NCBI RefSeq assembly: GCF_030028105.1
Contig: NC_092383.1
Location: 99,161,604-99,218,636, forward strand
Source: Mobula birostris
Lineage: Eukaryota
DNA length: 57,033 nucleotides
Direction of reading: 5' to 3'
In this document: positions 13,813 to 37,355 of the stretch, piece by piece
How the letters are laid out: each line of letters begins with the position of its first letter
Position numbering within the stretch: position 1 is the first letter of the stretch
The notes under the pieces: generated by a model
What the model was told of the DNA's origin: nothing
Database searches by the model: none
Seen by the model: the letters and a program-made list of their open reading frames with translations, nothing else
Program-made: the position numbers and the translations under genes

Positions 13813-14039
13813 CTCTGTCTTATGTACAAATTTGATGGTGATCCAGAACTGCGTGGCAGAATCCAGAGAGACAGACACACACAGGGGTATTCATTTTGTG
13901 ACTACAAAAACTCTTGCAAGATCTTTCTCACATACACCAGCCCCCTCAACCATCTCTCACACATCCTGCTCCCGCCTTCGCCCGCAGTCCTTCACGCCCA
14001 CCTCATCCCCTTAAGCGGACAGCTCCTGGTAATATTTCC

Positions 14040-14045
14040 TTTATT
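14040..14045 (-). terminator. NIT1 polyadenylation signal AATAAA
   Basis: TTTATT on plus, about 80 nt after the NIT1 stop codon. Confidence 0.7.
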
Positions 14046-14127
14046 GACAGCAGCAGGGGTATAAGATGTGATGAACACAGAGAGTTCTGGTGCCTGATTA
14101 ACGATGGTGAGAGTGTGAGGAGAACAG

Positions 14128-14400
14128 TCAGCTTAGGGATGGAGGTTCACCCACACTCCCGTAGAGATCGTTCCGCCGGTGTTGGGTCACGGGCATCTGT
14201 TGGCGCACCTGACGCAGGTAGTCCAGGTCTACCTCAGCATAGCAGAGACCGGGGCCCTGTCCACACTGGGCCAACACACAGCCCCAGGGGTCCACCACCA
14301 TGGAGTGGCCAAAGGACAAGCGACGGTCATTGTGCCGGCCTGTCTGTGCAGCCGCAACCACATAGCACTGTGTCTCGATTGCCCGGCTCCGCAGGAGAGT
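14128..14400 (-). CDS. NIT1: Deaminated glutathione amidase NIT1, coding exon 6 (last)
   Basis: TLLRSRAIETQCYVVAAAQTGRHNDRRLSFGHSMVVDPWG...QHRRNDLYG*; acceptor ctctggcag at 14401; phase 0. Confidence 0.96.
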   Translation of the reverse strand, partial: TLLRSRAIETQCYVVAAAQTGRHNDRRLSFGHSMVVDPWGCVLAQCGQGPGLCYAEVDLDYLRQVRQQMPVTQHRRNDLYGSVGEPPSLS

Positions 14401-14519
14401 CTGCCAGAGAGAACAGGATGAGTGGCAGGGCAACAGTGGGTCACATTGTGGAAGTCCACACACTCAGTACACACACAGGATACACTACTAAAGGAACATT
14501 CCCTCACACCCGAGACACA

Positions 14520-16673
14520 CGCACACGCACGTCAATTACTCGTAGTCGAGTACAATTCCTTTCCTGGTGTTGATCTGGTCACTTGTGGGTCTTGAGATAA
14601 CTGAAGAGGCCGATCTGTGATCTACAAGTCCTTTGCAGTGTTGGCAGGTGTAGGCCATTGAGAGGGTGGTGGATGTAGCTGGTTGGACCTTTCCCAGTCT
14701 CTCTTTACGTTGAAGCCGCTTAGTCTCAGCGGCACAGTGGAGGTATTCTTTGAGCTGTGCAGTCCCCTCATAGACAGTCCTTCTCCAGCTTTCCCTATCC
14801 TGTGATAATTTCTCCCACCCATTCAGGTTGATGTAGTACTTCTTCAGGTGGGCCTTGATGTTGTCCTTGAGCTGCTTTTTCTGGCCTTCAGGAGTCGCTT
14901 TGCATCCTTGAGTTGGCTGAACAGGAGTCCTTTAGGGAGGCAGGAGTCAGGGATACGGATGATGTGGCCGACCCATCGCAATTGGTGTTGAGTGATGATT
15001 GTGGCTATGGGGTTAATGTTAGCTTCTAACAGGATGCTGGAGTTAGTATGCCCGTTCTTCAGCTCTCAGAGGAAACTTTGATGGTAAGTGGGATTTTATG
15101 TGCCTGCTGTATGTTGTCCATGACTCCACTCCATATAGTAAGTAGGTGAGGACTTTAACTTTATAGACCAGAAGCTTGAGTTGGTCTTGCTATTTTGATC
15201 TTCAAAAACCCTCTTTCTCAGGCTGGCAACAGCTCCACTCACACAACCTATTCTGTGAGTTATTTCAAGGTAATGTTGGCTCTTGAGGAAAGAAGGCTGC
15301 CCAAATACGAACAATGACAAGTGTCCTCCAGAGGGACGTTGTCAATTTGGATGGTTGGAGGTTTAGGAGCTTGATTTGGAGCAGTTTGGTGCAGGACTTG
15401 GGTTTTCTTGATGTTTAGATCAAGTCCCAGGAGCTTGTATGCTCTGGCAAAAGCATCCATTGTACACTGCAGATCCTCTTTACAGCAAGCTACTATGTTG
15501 TTGTCTGCATATTGGAGCTGCATGATAGAAATAGTTGACACCTTGCTCTTTGTCTTGAACCTGTTAAGGTCCTATAGAGAATCTAGACTCCTTATGGGAG
15601 GTCTTGGCCTGTGAGGTGAAGAATGGTTGCAATGAAATTGGCAAACAGAGTTGGGGCAACGATGCACCCCTGTTTAACCCTGGTCTCAACCTTAAAAGGA
15701 GCTGTTTCAGGGCTGCTGCTGCTAATGACTGTTGCACTCATATCACTGTGTAAGAGCTGCAGGACCTTGAGGTATTTCTCCGGGCACCTGATTTTGGACA
15801 GTACCTGCTAAAGGACAAGATGATTTACAGAGTCAAATGCTTCTGTAAAGTCTATGAAAGCCATATAAAGTGGGAGAGTTTGTTCCCGAGCTTGCTCCTG
15901 CAATTGATGTGCTGTAAATATCACATCAGGTACTCCTCTGGCTGGATGGAGGCCACACTGAGACTCAGGCAGGAGATCTTCTGCCAGAGGTGAAAACCAG
16001 TCACATAAGATTCAGGTGAGTATCTTTCCTGTTGTAGAGAGGAGAGAGATGCCACTATGGTTTCTGCAGTCAGCTTTATCACCCTTTTTGAAGAGTGTGA
16101 CAATCAGGGCATCCCTGAGTTTAGCCAGAATCTTCTCCTGGTCCCAGGTCATGAATAGGATTTAAAAGTTCTATGCCACCTTCCTCGAGAATTTCTGCTG
16201 GAATTCCATCAGGCCTGGTGGCCTTGTTGTTCCTCGATTTCTTGTAAGCTATCTGCACCTCTTTGATACTGGGAGGCTTACTCACATCCTCCTTCATGGG
16301 TCGTTGTGGGAACTTCAATATCAACAGTGGTGTTAGGATTAAGTAGCTCCTGAAAGTGTTCCTGCCATCAGAATTGATGGCATCATTGTCCTTTAGCAGC
16401 CTTTGTCCATCTTTGGTGAAGGAAGTTTAGGCCACGGCCTTGGTGGCAATAAAGAAACCCTGATATCACCAGAGTCAGCAGGCTGCCGTGTTTCTGGGGC
16501 CCTCTCAGTCCACCACTGATTCTTTATTCCCCTTACTCTAAACTAGACTAAAGCCTTTGCTTTGAAATGGGCTGCTTTTTTAGCCTTGTTATTAATGTCC
16601 TTCTGCCAGGCACAGAAAGCTTTCCTTTTTTGTTGATTAGCCCTTCTATTTCATTGTCATTTTCATCAAACCA
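14520..16673 (-). mobile_element. RTE-clade LINE, RT and C-terminal part, in the last NIT1 intron
   Basis: KATRPDGIPAEIL, RVKQGCIVAPTLF, QLQYADNN, WFDENDNEI; GT-repeat tail near 14520. Confidence 0.85.
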
Positions 16674-18268
16674 AAATGATCTGCAGATGCTGGGGTCAAA
16701 GCAACATGCACAACACGCTGGAGGAACTCAGCAGGTCGGGCAGCATCCGTGGAAACCATCAGTCAACGTTTTGGGCTGGAACCCTTCGTCAGGACTGTAG
16801 AGGGAGGGGGCAGGGGCCCTATAAAGAAGGTGGGGGGAGGGTGGGAAGGAGAGGCTGGTAGATTCCAGGTGAAAAACCAGTAAGGGGAAAGATAAAGGGG
16901 TGGGGGAGGGGAAGCAGGGAGGTGATAGGCAGGAAAGGTGAAGAAGGAATAAGGGAAAGCACAATGGGTAGTAGAAGGAGGGGGAACCATGAGGGAAGTG
17001 ATAGGCAGCTGGGGGAGGGTGCAGAGTGAAACTGGGATGGGGGAAGGGAGGGGGAGGGAATTATCGGAAGTTGGAGAATTTAATGTTTATGCCAAGTGGC
17101 TGGAGACTACCCAGACGGTGTATGAGGTGTTGCTCCTCCAACCTGAGTTTGGCCTCATTGTGGCAGTAGAGGAGGCCATGTATGGACATATCCAAATGGG
17201 AATGTGAAGCAGAGTTGGAGTGGGCAGCTACTGGGAGATCCTGTCTGTTGTGGCGAACGGAGCAGAGGTGCTCGACAAAGCGGTCCCCCAATCTGCGTTG
17301 GGAGCACCGGATGCAATCGATCACCCCAACAGACTCCCAAGTGAAGTGTTGCCTCACTTGGAAGGACTGTTTGTGGCCCGAATAGTGGTGAGAGAGGAGG
17401 TGTAGGGACAGGTGTAGCACTTATGCTTATAGGGATAAGTGCCGGGTGGGAGATCCGTGGGGAGGGATGTGTGGACCAGGGAGTCGCGGAGGGACCGATC
17501 CCTGCGGAAAGCGGAGAGGGGTAGAGAGGGAAAGATGTGCTTAGTGGTGGGGTCCTGTTGAAGGTGGCGGAAGTTGCAGAGGATAATGTGCTGGATTCGG
17601 AGGCTGGTGGGGTGGTAGGTGAGGACAAGGGGAACTGTCCCTGTTGTGGTGACGGGAGGATGGGGTGAGGGCCAAAGTGCAGGAAATGGAGGAGATGCAG
17701 GTGAGGGCATCATTGATGACGACAGAAAGGAAACCACGACCCTTAAAGAAAGAGGACATTTGAGATGTCCTGGAACGGAAAGCCTCATCCTGGGAGCAGA
17801 TGCAGCGGAGATGGAGGAACTGGGAATAAGGAATAGCATTTTTCCATGTGGCAGCGTGGGAAGAGGTATAGTCGAGGTAGTTATGAGAGTCAGTGGGCAT
17901 ATAGAAGATGTCAGTGGACAGTCTGTCTCCAGAGATGGAGACCGAGAGATCGAGAAAGGAGAGAGAAGTGTCCGAGATGGACCAAGTGAATCTGAGGGCT
18001 GGGTGGAAGCTAGAAGCAAAGTGGATGAAATTGACAAGCTCAGCATGGGTGCAGGAAGCAGCACCAATATAGTTGTCAATGTAGCGAACGAAAAGCTGGG
18101 GAGCAGTACCAGTATAGGTTTAGAGCATAGACTGTTCCACATAACCAACAAAGAGGCAGGCATAGCTGGGGCCCATGCGAGTGCCCATAGCTACACCCTT
18201 GGTCTGAAGAAAGTGGGAAGAGCCAAAAGAGAAGTTATTAAGTGTGAATACCAGTTCCGCCAAACGTA
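16674..18268 (-). mobile_element. Penelope-like retroelement (RT plus GIY-YIG endonuclease region, truncated), nested inside the RTE LINE
   Basis: LAELVFTLNNFSFGSSHFLQTKGVAMGTRMGPSYACLFVGYVE; PTDSHNYLDYTSSH; VRQHFT..CIRCS..RRLGDRFVEH; terminal repeat with hammerhead motif. Confidence 0.9.
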
Positions 18269-18640
18269 AAAACTCTGTTTTTTCAGGTCTTGTATCTAAT
18301 GATATTTTCAGAAGTATCAAGGATGGTGATCCTCAGTGTAGTCCAGTGTGCTTCAATGTCCTCCAGATACTGCTTTGGGAATCTTTCAGAAAGGGCAGCC
18401 TGGAGATAATTGTACCTTCACTGTGTCTTTTAGGCTCTCAATGTTGAACCCGGGACGGCTCACGTTCTTTTTCACTCCACTCCTCCACATGATTTTGATG
18501 GTCATTTGTGAGCAAGTAAGCCACTGGTCTGTCCAGCCATCATCAGCACTGATCATGGCTCTTGTATTCTTTACATCTCTGTGATCCCTCCTCTGAACGA
18601 TGATATAATCTAGAAGATGCCAAGTCTTTGAAGTTTTCAC
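18269..18640 (-). mobile_element. RTE-clade LINE, end of the endonuclease domain (5' part of the element split by Penelope)
   Basis: SKTWHLLDYIIVQRRDHRDVKNTRAMISADDGWTDQ. Confidence 0.85.
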
Positions 18641-18728
18641 CTTATTTCACACACACACAAATCACTATTAAGCACTTTTCTTCAAACCTGAAATTTGACA
18701 GAGTGAAATTACTTTCATGAAGCCTCAC

Positions 18729-18854
18729 CTCCCAATGTGCCATGCCAGTTGTTAACGTAAAAGCAGATGGGAATGTAAGAATTTCTGCTCCAGCATCAGC
18801 TAGAGTTCGAGATATTTCTGGGAATCGAAGATCATAACAAATAGCAAGTCCAAT
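18729..18854 (-). CDS. NIT1: NIT1 coding exon 5 (catalytic Cys, ICYDLRFPE)
   Basis: IGLAICYDLRFPEISRTLADAGAEILTFPSAFTLTTGMAHWE; 126 nt; cctaccacag acceptor, GAG|GTGAGG donor. Confidence 0.96.
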
Positions 18855-18874
18855 CTGTGGTAGGAAAGCACAAC

Positions 18875-19210
18875 ACAGGTCAGACACAGAGTGAATCTCC
18901 CTCTACCCTATCCATCACACACCCCCAGGGAATGGGTCAGACACAGAGTGAATCTCCCTCCAAATTGTCCCTTCACACACTCCCTCTACACTATCCCAAT
19001 ACGCACCCCCAGGACAGGGGTCAGACACAGAGTGAAGCTCCCTCTGCACTGTCCCATCACACACTCCCACGGCATGGCTCGGACACAGACTGAAGCTCCC
19101 TCTACACTGACCCATCACACACTCCCAGGGTCAGACACAGAGTGAAACTCACTCTACACTGTCCCATCACACACTCCTAGGACACTGGTCAGACACAGTC
19201 CCATCACATT
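18875..19210 (-). repeat. ~55-bp minisatellite (GGGTCAGACACAGAGTGAAGCTCCCTCTACACTGTCCCATCACACACTCCC on plus) filling NIT1 intron 4
   Basis: About 6 degenerate tandem units read directly. Confidence 0.85.
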
Positions 19211-19213
19211 TAC

Positions 19214-19347
19214 CTTGCCAACTGGAGTTGTAACCGGCAGCTCAATTCGTGGTCCCGGAATGGTGAAGCTGCTCTCCTTGAGTGAGACCTGACCCGGGAG
19301 ATCCACATCGAAGAGGTGGGTCTTTCGGTAGAGCCCCACAGTTTGTC
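19214..19347 (-). CDS. NIT1: NIT1 coding exon 4 (catalytic Lys, YRKTHL)
   Basis: GQTVGLYRKTHLFDVDLPGQVSLKESSFTIPGPRIELPVTTPVGK; 134 nt; tatttag acceptor, AAG|GTAAAT donor. Confidence 0.96.
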
Positions 19348-19577
19348 CTAAATACAACAGGATTAATATGCTTTGTAGCTCTGCCTCCTGGTTTTAATTC
19401 CATCTTCCTATGGTCACACCACCCCCAGTGACAGCAGACAGAAAACATCAATCTGGATTTGTCCTCACAATCAAATCTGTCCCAGACACAGGCCTGTTTC
19501 TCCCCGTCCTTCCCTGATCCGGGACCTCCTGCCCCCCACCAGCCCACACGGTTATTCCATCTGCCAATCCCTCTTAC

Positions 19578-19681
19578 CCGAGTCGTCAAGTAGCAGGTGG
19601 GTATTGTAGACTCGCCGGTCCTGATCCCAGCGTGGTCCTCGTTCGTGGAACCCACCCAGGGACAGCCAGAGCCTCGACTCC
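19578..19681 (-). CDS. NIT1: NIT1 coding exon 3
   Basis: ESRLWLSLGGFHERGPRWDQDRRVYNTHLLLDDS-G; 104 nt; ctgcag acceptor, G|GTAAGA donor. Confidence 0.96.
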
Positions 19682-20189
19682 CTGCAGACAGGTACAGGCC
19701 TTTGAGAGAGGGCAAAGGAGGCAAGAGGTGTGGGGAATCGAGGGAGAGATGATGCAGAGGGATGGGGGAGGTTGTTAATGGGAACTGAGGGATGAGGAGG
19801 GACAGAGGGGGACGAGGCTGACAGAGGCGACGATCGGGTCGGAGAGGAACGAGAGAGATGGAGGGACGAGTGAGACAGAGGAGAACGAGGGGACACTGTG
19901 TTGGGGGAAGAGGGATGGAGGGAATGAGGGATTGGAGAGGACAGTGAAGATGGTGAGGGACAGTGAGGACGAGGGCAAGGAAGGAATGAGGGGGTGGAGG
20001 GAATTAGGGGCTGGAGGAGGACAGTGGAGATGGAGAGGGACAGTGAGAATGAAGGGAAGGAGGGGATGAGGGGGATGGAGGGGAACATAGGGAATGAGGA
20101 GTACTGAGGGGACAAGGGGAATGAGGGAGATGGAGGGGGATTGGGGGAACGGAGATAAGTGGCAAATACAGAGGGTCAAGGAGGCCTAC

Positions 20190-20432
20190 CTGGCCAGCTG
20201 CCGGTATCTCTCTACCAGCTCCCCCTCAAGACCCTCGGCGAGGTGGAGGGTTTCCTCAGTGCTGGGTGCGATGTAATCGAAGGCCTCAGGCAGGAAGAGC
20301 ATGCGGACCCCACGGGCTGCCCCCACCCTCACCAGCTCCTGGCACTGATGGAAATTGTGCTCCTTGTCTGCGGAGGCGGTCATCTGGCCCACTCCAATCA
20401 GGGCCCTCCGTGAGCTGGACATGGCCAAGGTC
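20190..20432 (-). CDS. NIT1: NIT1 coding exon 2 (internal ATG at 20422; catalytic Glu, FLPEA)
   Basis: TLAMSSSRRALIGVGQMTASADKEHNF...LFLPEAFDYI...YRQLAR; ggggcag acceptor at 20433, AG|GTAGGC donor. Confidence 0.94.
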
Positions 20433-20600
20433 CTGCCCCAGGAGAGTTTGTCAGTAAACAGCCTCATCCTCCCTCCCTCTCTCCCACAGCCCTCACACAA
20501 ATACCACCATACTTTCAAATAATGTACATCCCTTATAAATAGACCCCAGCAAACTCAAAGCACACCACTTGCATCTAAATATCTCCGGCAAACTCAAACA

Positions 20601-22930: not shown

Positions 22931-23032
22931 TGACTTTTTAAAAAAAATCACTTTGCCACAATCAAACCCAGAGCTTCGACAGCATCCACTCAGAAAATAT
23001 TCTCTGGAATGCGACAGCGTTTCTGGAATTAC

Positions 23033-23067
23033 CCGCCGATTCTTCTTGCAACCCGCAGAAGGAGCAT
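23033..23067 (-). CDS. NIT1: NIT1 coding exon 1, putative mitochondrial presequence (MLLLRVARRIG-G)
   Basis: ATG at 23067; Arg-rich peptide with no acidic residues; GG|GTAATT phase-2 donor matches the phase-2 acceptor at 20432, giving one open 304-aa ORF. Confidence 0.72.
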
Positions 23068-23367
23068 TAGCGAGACGGGAAGATGGCTGCCCGACTCCGG
23101 GGCGACGGTTGGGGTCCTGGCGGGTTTAGCTGCCTAAAATCCTATCACCTTTACTTTTATTTATGAGGGTCGAAGGAAACGGGAGGCGGCGGACAGTTAG
23201 AATGAGATTATTTACCACTATGAAGCAGCGGCAGCTGTGTTTTTTCCCCCATCCTCGAACGGTCAGGTGGGAAAGCCCCAACAGGCGCTTGCAGGGGCTA
23301 CCTGCGGTGGGCGGAGGTCTATAAAAGGCGGCGCACGGCTGGCGCTGCCAGTCACCGCCTCCGCGGG
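23068..23367. promoter_or_regulatory. Bidirectional NIT1/PFDN2 promoter: YY1-like AAGATGGC (~23080), GC box (23309-23314), TATAAAA (23320-23326), Inr-like CCAGT (23348-23352)
   Basis: Divergent ATGs 300 bp apart in a CpG island; TATA lies 30 nt before the Inr A at 23350. Confidence 0.78.
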
Positions 23368-23564
23368 ATGGAGAGCGGAGCGGGTTTTGGTGGTGCTCGT
23401 ACTGCTGGGCCCGCGTCGGGAGGTCGGCCCCGAGCTCCGGGCACAGGCTCCGGCTCCGGGCCTACTCCCGAGCAGGTGCTGGCCGGCTTCAATCGTCTGC
23501 GACAGGAGCAGCGCAACCTGGTCGGGAAGGGAGCGGAGCTGGAGCAAGAAGTGGTGGAGCACGG
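23368..23564 (+). CDS. PFDN2: Prefoldin subunit 2, coding exon 1
   Basis: MESGAG...PEQVLAGFNRLRQEQRNLVGKGAELEQEVVEH-G; GG|GTGCGT phase-2 donor. Confidence 0.93.
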
Positions 23565-35780: not shown

Positions 35781-36239
35781 CTGTGGGGCATCAGAGAGGT
35801 GGTTAGTATCAATGGGACTATCCTGTCATCCACCCTCCCGAGAGCCGCACTCTCCCTTCTTTCCTTCCCGTCTCCTCTCTCCCTCCTACTCTTTTGCACA
35901 CTTCCATCACGGCTTTCCACTTCCATTCTAAGGATTGTTTATTTCCCACATTCCCTGTCTCCTCACAGAACTCTGTCCTCTCCATTCTGCCATTCCATCC
36001 AATCCAGCAGGCTCCTTACTCCCACTGCTTATCCCTGCTGACCCTTCCAGGGTAATTCCCCCCACCACCACCACCATCTTCACACCTTCTTCCCAATCAC
36101 TCTTCCCTACCCCTCCTCATCCCCTTCCCCACCCCTCCTCATCCCCTTCCCCCTCTACTCACTGACCACAACGCCCTCCATCCTTCCTCCTCAACATCAC
36201 TGAGCAAGATCCCCTCCTTCCCAACTCTGATCTTCCTGA

Positions 36240-37190
36240 TCACTGACCATCACAAACCCCTCCCCATCACTGACCCTCACAAAATCCTCCCATCACTGAC
36301 CCTCACAAACCCCCTCCCCATCACTGACCCTCACAAACCCCCTCCCCATCACTGACCCACACAAACCCCTTCCCCATCACTGACCCTCACAAACCCCTCC
36401 CCATCACTGACCCTCACAAACCCCCTCCCCATCACTGACCCTCACAAACCCCCTCCCCATCACTGACCCTCACAAACCCCTCCCCATCACTGACCCTCAC
36501 AAACCCCCTCCCCATCACTGACCCTCACAAACCCCCTCCATCACTGACCCTCACAAACCCCATCCCCATCACTGACCCTCACAAACCCCCTCCCCATCAC
36601 TGACCCTCACAGACCCCCTTCCACATCACTGACCCTCACAAACCCCCTCCCCATCACTGACTCTCACAAACCCCGTCCCCATCACTGACCCTCACAAACC
36701 CCCTTCCCCATCACCGACCCTCACAAACCCCTCCCCATCACTGACCCTCACAAACCCCTCCCCTATCACTGACCCTCACAAACCCCTCCCCATCACTGAC
36801 CCTCACAAACCCCTCCCCCATCACTGACTCTCACAAACCCCGTCCCCATCACTGACCCTCACAAACCCCCTTCCCCATCACCGACCCTCACAAACCCCTC
36901 CCCATCACTGACCCTCACAAACCCCTCCCCTATCACTGACCCTCACAAACCCCTCCCCATCACTGACCCTCACAAACCCCCTCCCCATCACTGACCCTCA
37001 CAAACCCCTCCCCATCACTGACCCTCACAAACCCCTCCCCCATCACTGACCCTCACAAACCCCCTCCCCCCATCACTGACTCTCACAAACCCCGTCCCCA
37101 TCACTGACCCTCACAACCCCCTCCCCCATCACTGACCCTCACAAACCCCTCCCCATCACTGACCCTCACAAACCCCTTTCGCCATCACTG
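36240..37190. repeat. ~26-bp minisatellite (CCCCTCCCCATCACTGACCCTCACAAA)n, about 35 units, starting at the KLHDC9 exon-3 donor
   Basis: Direct tandem repeats with variable C-run lengths. Confidence 0.97.
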
Positions 37191-37192
37191 AC

Positions 37193-37355
37193 CTTCACGA
37201 CCCCTTCCTTCCAGTGCCCGGCCACCTCAAAGCCAGGTGTGTTGCGCCCTCCAAATAGCAGCAGCTGAAAGCTGGCCTTCCCTCGGCACCCTCTCCGACA
37301 CAGGGTGGCCGAGTGCCCAGAGCGCGAGGCTGTGCGTGAGGCCTGCTCCTCGTAC
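37193..37355 (-). CDS. KLHDC9: KLHDC9 coding exon 3
   Basis: YEEQASRTASRSGHSATL...QLLLFGGRNTPGFEVAGHWKEGVVK; 163 nt; ctccccag acceptor, AAG|GTCAGT donor. Confidence 0.94.

What the first reader, a model, noticed from the sequence alone, without database searches (positions are those of the whole stretch)
18729..18854. NIT1 catalytic-Cys exon has alien, AT-rich codon usage within a GC3-rich gene
Seen, by hand count: only 7 of 42 codons (17%) end in G or C, and two of those are forced (ATG, TGG). The other large NIT1 exons are about 78% (exon 2), 71% (exon 3), 61% (exon 4) and roughly two-thirds (exon 6); PFDN2 and KLHDC9 exons are also GC3-rich. The peptide is intact and in frame with good splice sites. 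The AT-rich character continues into the next intron, which is occupied by an RTE LINE. Established: RTE is a clade known for horizontal transfer. Inference: the exon may have been replaced by a homologous exon from another source (foreign or parasite DNA, or a paralog from an AT-rich compartment), or it marks a very local mutational or gene-conversion anomaly.
Basis: partly seen in the sequence, partly recalled or inferred. Interest (0 to 1): 0.78.

Follow-up and report, generated by a model that had tools for sequence, protein, structure and literature searches.

The report
Old AT-rich exon in ray NIT1
One exon of an ordinary enzyme gene in rays uses A/T-ending codons far more than its neighbours; it is correctly spliced, shared by other rays and closest to skate and shark versions, so it is likely an old local quirk of DNA substitution, not foreign DNA.

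Summary
Observation confirmed. NIT1 exon 5 (minus strand, 18729-18854) has G/C at 5 of 40 synonymous third positions, against 165 of 237 in the other four exons (Fisher p 7e-12). It is lower than all 77 control exon segments from five other genes of this genome. It is no assembly error and no recent import. All 8 laid runs hold it with 0-4 differences, in six other organisms too, and five contigs splice it to both neighbouring exons. Its peptide follows the species tree: rays 41-42 of 42, skates 37-39, sharks 33-37, invertebrates 32-34. No donor copy was found in the genome. The LINE starts about 80 nt downstream, belongs to a resident multi-copy family and shows no AT bias. The AT shift spills into the flanking intron and the end of exon 4. 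Best reading: an old, few-hundred-base AT-shifted patch in a native gene. Selection on codons and conversion from a lost duplicate remain open.

The parts
18729..18854 (-). NIT1 exon 5 (42 codons, holds the CYD cysteine); 5 of 40 synonymous third positions G/C
   Evidence: Pfam CN_hydrolase positions 144-188; spliced to exons 4 and 6 in contigs
18649..18728 (-). Unique 5' part of intron 5, AT-rich (19 of 62 G/C in 18661-18722), ending in a short TG repeat
   Evidence: conserved with 5 substitutions and a 12-nt insertion in organism E
19214..19347 (-). NIT1 exon 4 (27/44 G/C); its last 14 codons (19214-19255) are 5/14 against 22/30 before them
   Evidence: p 0.024, chosen after seeing the data
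19578..19681 (-). NIT1 exon 3 (22/32 G/C)
20190..20422 (-). NIT1 exon 2, counted from the Met of MSSS (57/74 G/C)
14131..14400 (-). NIT1 exon 6, coding part (59/87 G/C)
18897..19198 (.). Degenerate 52-84 nt minisatellite filling intron 4 (55% G+C)
18270..18648 (-). 5'-truncated end of a LINE (RTE-like by recalled motifs), resident family; lower bound approximate
   Evidence: 40 of 40 scored candidates match, the other copies at 81-88%; boundary
14550..16680 (-). Body of the same LINE, degenerate reverse transcriptase; bounds approximate
   Evidence: copies at 77-85%; weak RVT_1 hits, E 0.0009 and 0.0015
16680..18270 (-). Second element nested in the LINE (Penelope-like by recalled motifs); bounds approximate
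   Evidence: ORF fragments; no Pfam hit for 3 of 3 fragments scanned

Best explanation
This is the native, spliced catalytic exon of a single-copy ray NIT1 gene, and its A/T-ending codons are likely the fossil of an old, very local substitution regime. Inferred: a patch of about 250 bases of old sequence (end of exon 4, exon 5, first 60-80 nt of intron 5) likely escaped the GC-biased gene conversion that raised the neighbouring exons to about 70%, or went through an AT-biased phase. Protein selection kept first and second positions unchanged. The patch is older than the split of the rays sampled (shown) and likely older than the LINE beside it (inferred). It likely persists because these genomes change slowly. 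No function of the codon choice is required.
For: Shown: same exon with 0-4 differences in 8 of 8 laid runs, all 4 listed exon differences synonymous. Peptide identity follows the species tree. No second copy: 1 match of 2, 1 of 1, and 5 own exons plus one NIT2-like exon of 11 candidates. The AT shift crosses the exon edge into intron 5 (31% against 53%, p 0.0014) and the end of exon 4 (p 0.024), both post hoc. Third positions are not frozen: 3 of 40 differ from organism E against 9 of 165 intron bases. The two differences that can be polarised by majority go A/T to G/C. LINE copies give a neutral equilibrium of 0.34-0.44 G+C, so 70% is the pushed state. Exon-specific gBGC episodes are known in rodents (PMC12290510, abstract); shark chromosome ends are GC-rich (PMC10620051, passages).
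Against: The exon lies below neutral expectation too: P(5 or fewer of 40) is 0.013 with LINE-based rates plus an assumed CpG term, and 3e-4 to 7e-4 against an AT-rich gene. Mere absence of gBGC is therefore barely enough. The LINE 100-450 nt away shows no AT bias (10 S>W against 9 W>S; p 0.001 against a lasting regime at 12%), so the patch must be older than the LINE or very narrow. The LINE copy is only about 7% diverged from its family, while the gap to the neighbouring exons needs about 0.55 net changes per site. That is a long time at ray rates, and a one-step replacement would avoid it. No molecular cause for an AT-biased phase was identified.
Confidence: 0.42

Rival explanations
1. Exon-specific selection keeps A/T at third positions, for splicing, for slower translation across the catalytic strand, or for an overlapping DNA element.
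For: The value lies below the neutral and AT-rich-gene expectations. The effect is strongest inside the exon and absent from the LINE. Weak selection would barely lower divergence, so ordinary divergence does not exclude it (inference).
Against: No RNA structure (z 0.49). No long inverted partner in 14000-20500; the only arm touching the exon among the 25 of 45 pairs shown is 15 nt. No Rfam hit in the exon. The exon is T-rich, unlike purine-rich splice enhancers (enhancer composition recalled). The teleost-like homologue is 24/41 G/C against 23/46 and 62/82 in its neighbours, and none of the other 6 metagenome loci shows a dip.
Confidence: 0.28
2. The exon was overwritten once, early in batoid or shark history, by conversion from a working duplicate or retrogene that sat in an AT-rich region and was later lost.
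For: A one-step event avoids the long time needed at ray substitution rates. Exon 5 is the most conserved exon, hence the easiest target for conversion. The polarised changes since then go back towards G/C (2 of 2).
Against: No duplicate or processed copy found. Exons of an AT-rich gene of this genome average 39% and none is under 25%. The AT shift runs into the intron, which a cDNA donor would not cause.
Confidence: 0.18
3. The exon came from a foreign AT-rich organism (parasite or bacterium), with or without the LINE.
For: In a 42-column tree with four bacterial proteins the four rays join the bacteria (98/91), through residues R16 and D20 that 20 other hits also carry. RTE elements are known to move between species (PMC5381603, passage).
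Against: That grouping vanishes when the two columns are dropped; batoid monophyly is not rejected (p-AU 0.21), and with animals only the 7 batoids form one side of a branch, weakly (43/69). The bacteria were picked as best hits to the ray peptide. Best non-chondrichthyan identity among 120 listed hits is 35/42 against 39/42 for a skate. No long DNA match above 70% in 127 fetched loci. Intron positions match the teleost-like gene. The LINE family is resident.
Confidence: 0.04
4. Assembly error or contamination.
For: Repeat-rich surroundings near a chromosome end.
Against: A genomic contig of another organism spans the whole stretch (X16); spliced contigs of five studies join it to exons 4 and 6; four annotated ray species carry the peptide at 41-42 of 42.
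Confidence: 0.005

Closest known systems
Vertebrate NIT1 (deaminated glutathione amidase; Pfam PF00795; nearest structure worm NitFhit 1EMS)
   Same: All five exons match the annotated Mobula birostris protein at every residue; CN_hydrolase E 6e-71; 1EMS E 2.5e-94.
   Different: Nothing at the protein level, apart from R16 and D20 of exon 5, which are limited to rays and sawfish among the animals compared. The oddity is silent.
Exon-specific GC-biased gene conversion episodes (PMC12290510, abstract and outline; 10.1101/2021.05.05.442789, passages)
   Same: Base composition at silent sites can differ exon by exon within one gene and one lineage.
   Different: Those episodes raise GC in single exons. 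Here one exon is far below its gene and slightly below neutral equilibrium.
Synonymous constraint elements and exonic enhancers (PMC4014394, PMC3371700; search listing and abstract start only)
   Same: A coding exon whose silent sites look non-random.
   Different: They are defined by very low synonymous rates; here third positions change about as fast as the adjacent intron, on few counts.
Horizontally transferred RTE LINEs (BovB, AviRTE; PMC5381603, passages)
   Same: An RTE-like LINE lies beside the exon.
   Different: It is an old multi-copy family of this genome, shared in place with another organism, and carries no sign of a captured exon in the 11 other copies aligned.

Membership tests
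NIT1 | Carbon-nitrogen hydrolase domain | tested here: met
NIT1 | Glu-Lys-Cys triad (FLPE, RK, CYD; motifs recalled) | tested here: met
   present and aligned with 1EMS
NIT1 | Orthology with annotated NIT1 and position beside PFDN2 and KLHDC9 (gene order and the two names recalled) | tested here: met
   Kelch hits
NIT1 | Hydrolyses deaminated glutathione | not testable with these tools
   needs an assay
Horizontally acquired exon | Closer to a foreign donor than to sister species | tested here: not met
Horizontally acquired exon | Tree position conflicts with the species tree | tested here: inconclusive
   ray+bacteria grouping rests on 2 columns; batoid clade not rejected, p-AU 0.21; 42 columns resolve little
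Horizontally acquired exon | Patchy or recent distribution | tested here: not met
   8 of 8 laid runs, 7 organisms; these runs were chosen because they hold the exon, so only its age is shown
Ectopic conversion from a paralog | Donor copy in the genome | tested here: not met
   the searches score only the best candidates
Ectopic conversion from a paralog | Tract bounded by homology, with a burst of silent change on one branch | not testable with these tools
   no skate or shark DNA obtained; the AT shift passes the exon edge
gBGC episode exon | Cluster of AT-to-GC silent changes giving a GC-rich exon | tested here: not met
   opposite sign
Synonymous constraint element | Synonymous rate well below neutral | tested here: inconclusive
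   3 of 40 third positions against 9 of 165 intron bases for organism E
Synonymous constraint element | Overlapping RNA structure or RNA gene | tested here: not met
RTE clade LINE | Non-LTR reverse transcriptase | tested here: inconclusive
   RVT_1 hits below the curated cut-off in 2 of 5 fragments of this element; multi-copy
RTE clade LINE | Groups with RTE elements in an RT tree | not tested

The most novel reading that the evidence does not exclude
The catalytic exon of a single-copy housekeeping gene was swapped in one step, early in ray or shark history, for the homologous exon of an AT-rich donor, and the silent sites still record it. The donor was most likely a duplicate that has since been lost; a foreign donor accounts for about 0.04 of the probability.
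Probability: 0.22. Interest if true: 0.7.

Novelty: new member of a known kind. Interest (0 to 1): 0.33.

Why it matters
It is an unusually clean natural case of one exon at 12% GC3 inside a 70% gene, in slowly evolving genomes that keep old signals. If neutral, it shows that substitution regimes can differ over a few hundred bases and stay visible for a very long time, and it warns that 'alien codon usage' alone is not evidence of transfer. If skates and sharks show a sudden switch, or recoding has an effect, it becomes a test case for exon replacement or for selection on silent sites in a vertebrate. The protein itself is ordinary.

Tried and rejected
Foreign donor, misassembly, CpG decay alone, RNA structure, an editing partner and an overlapping RNA gene were tested and rejected as described. 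The opposite strand in the codon-aligned frame has stops. No second, degenerate exon 5 in the window. Skate and shark DNA was not obtained. The metagenome scan gave 7 loci, one teleost-like and six invertebrate-like. The prokaryote scan gave 120 stretches, the 80 listed all with bacterial titles. The viral scan gave 0. Per-exon synonymous divergence of exons 2-4 and 6 across rays was not obtained. Only a hand count on the 30-nt loose ends exists: 9 silent differences in 90 third positions over five organisms, not independent, similar to exon 5. No RNA holder is on record; RNA status is guessed, and splicing is read from the contigs. 8 of 24 listed runs were laid; organism B was not. A motif scan for more genes in 114 kb left of NIT1 found none, so nearby controls are PFDN2, KLHDC9 and NDUFS2 (six segments at 50-69%). 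One search used wrong frames for exon 3 and PFDN2 and is superseded. In one search, hits under 55% identity, overlapping hits and 4 segments under 20 codons were dropped, and about 4 kept segments include intron codons. Eight literature searches listed no paper on this exon or on AT3-island exons in elasmobranchs; only listings were seen for most, and no supplements were read. Searches of earlier findings by sequence and by words returned nothing.

Full report
Gene and observation. The window holds NIT1 on the minus strand, head to head with PFDN2 and followed by a Kelch gene (KLHDC9; the two names are recalled, Kelch hits). It lies about 0.6 Mb from the end of a 99.8-Mb contig. The five large exons translate to the annotated Mobula birostris NIT1 at every residue. 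Exon 5 (18729-18854) has canonical splice sites and 7 of 42 codons ending in G/C, or 5 of 40 synonymous ones, against 165 of 237 in the other exons (Fisher p 7e-12; amino-acid-conditioned p 9e-12). First and second positions are ordinary (GC12 0.54). The deficit holds at sites not prone to CpG loss (4/25 against 145/182).

How unusual. I mapped 77 exon-sized segments of four P-type ATPase genes and COPA from this genome. In the four GC3-rich genes (58 segments, gene means 69-78%) the lowest was 42%. In the AT-rich gene (19 segments, mean 39%) the lowest was 25%. Scatter exceeds binomial (z SD 1.57, minimum -4.9), but exon 5 sits at z -7.9. NDUFS2 on the same contig arm is 50-69% over six segments; PFDN2 and KLHDC9 are 60-82%. 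The exon is a true outlier, although 77 segments only bound its frequency to a few percent.

Real and old. Of 24 listed runs I laid 8, from 8 studies (one may be the source of this DNA). All hold the exon with 0-4 differences. The four listed exon differences are synonymous; a few were not listed by the tool. Even if all unlisted ones were to G/C, none of the fully covered exons would exceed 9 of 42. Contigs from five studies end exactly at the exon edges and continue into exons 4 and 6; one more continues into exon 4. A genomic contig of organism E spans exon, intron flank and LINE start in one piece. Misassembly is excluded, and the AT-rich state predates the split of these seven organisms.

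Native, not foreign. Searched alone, the peptide's best hits are rays, sawfish, skates and sharks (247 hits of 272 candidates, 120 listed). Identities of 42 are 41-42 for rays and sawfish, 37-39 for skates, 36 for the electric ray, 33-37 for sharks, 32-34 for the bony vertebrates and invertebrates tabulated, and at most 35 for any non-chondrichthyan among the 120. One result points the other way: with four bacterial proteins in a 42-column tree, rays join the bacteria at 98/91. This rests on R16 and D20 and disappears when those columns are dropped. Batoid monophyly is not rejected (p-AU 0.21), and with animals alone batoids form one weakly supported side (43/69). Outside those two positions the sawfish and skate peptides are identical. 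The AT3 signal covers codons 1-36, where the residues are skate-like, so a bacterial tract would need many reversions (inference). No long DNA match above 70% was found in 127 fetched loci. No duplicate or processed copy was found in the genome.

The LINE. Homology to the repeat family starts at 18648, 80 nt past the donor site, after a TG repeat. The family has at least 40 copies at 81-88%, and the insertion is shared with organism E. I used it as a recorder of local substitution. Against the majority state of 31, 19 and 14 other copies, the part nearest the exon has 10 of 145 S>W and 9 of 191 W>S changes (equilibrium 0.41). The distal parts give 0.44 and 0.36, and the other copies 0.34-0.38. 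There is no AT bias beside the exon since the insertion (p 0.001 against a regime at 12%). The copy is about 7% diverged at non-CpG sites, against about 5.5% total intron divergence from organism E, so it is roughly 2.5 times older than that split (rough inference). The RTE label rests on recalled motifs; Pfam gave only weak RT hits.

Extent. The unique intron flank is 19 of 62 G/C against 53% for other unique introns (p 0.0014), and the last 14 codons of exon 4 are 5/14 against 22/30 (p 0.024); both were chosen after seeing the data. Intron 4 is filled by a minisatellite and is uninformative. The anomaly therefore looks like a patch of about 250 bases of old sequence centred on exon 5. It is not a general property of this exon: a teleost-like homologue has 24/41, with neighbours at 23/46 and 62/82, and the six invertebrate-like loci show no dip.

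Mechanism. Neutral equilibrium here is near 0.4, so the 70% of the neighbouring exons is the pushed state. This fits GC-rich chromosome ends in sharks (PMC10620051, passages) and exon-level gBGC in mammals (PMC12290510, abstract; 10.1101/2021.05.05.442789, passages). PMC4316630 (passages) had nothing on sharks. I commit to an old, local, neutral AT-shifted patch (0.42): it explains the spill into the intron, the ordinary divergence of third positions (3 of 40 against 9 of 165 intron bases) and the two polarised changes towards G/C. Its weak points are real. The exon is below neutral expectation (p 0.013; 3e-4 to 7e-4 against the AT-rich gene), and a 55-point gap needs far more change than the 7% seen since the LINE inserted. 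Selection on silent sites (0.28) would explain the depth, but I found no structure, partner or RNA gene. One-step conversion from a lost duplicate (0.18) would explain the timing, but has no donor and not the intron shift. Foreign origin is at 0.04. The remainder is plain tail chance.

Verdict. A real, conserved compositional outlier in an ordinary gene. The horizontal-transfer reading is not supported. Skate and shark coding sequences, which I could not obtain, would separate the remaining readings. Eight literature searches listed no description of this exon; supplements were not read and are unlikely to bear on the counts.

Noticed in passing
window 18795-18809 (exon 5 codons 16 and 20): Rays and sawfish carry R16 and D20 near the active site; the other 25 animals compared lack R16 and D20, while 20 other hits among the 120 listed (bacterial where named) have both. 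Likely convergence.
   Followed up: partly
window 14550-18648: LINE copies across this genome drift to a G+C equilibrium of about 0.34-0.44, even inside a 70% GC3 gene, so GC3-rich ray exons lie well above present neutral equilibrium.
   Followed up: partly
window 16680-18270: A second element, Penelope-like by recalled motifs, is nested inside the RTE-like LINE.
   Followed up: partly
window 14510-14535 and 18649-18660: CA-type repeats flank both ends of the LINE, suggesting insertion into a microsatellite of an intron once about 215 nt long; organism E has 12 more bases in the repeat.
   Followed up: no
L233-L234 region and L246 (P-type ATPase genes on C4539 and C9): Milder exon-level GC3 dips occur in controls: 17/40 in a 69% gene (in L232) and 34/61 in a 78% gene (in L246).
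   Followed up: no
window 36239-37208: A 28-nt minisatellite of about 35 copies (91% matches) fills a KLHDC9 intron.
   Followed up: no
window 23000-23370: NIT1 and PFDN2 are head to head around a short CpG-rich stretch, a likely shared promoter.
   Followed up: no
P0163: A white shark protein named coatomer subunit alpha carries a Na/K-ATPase piece, probably a fused gene model.
   Followed up: no
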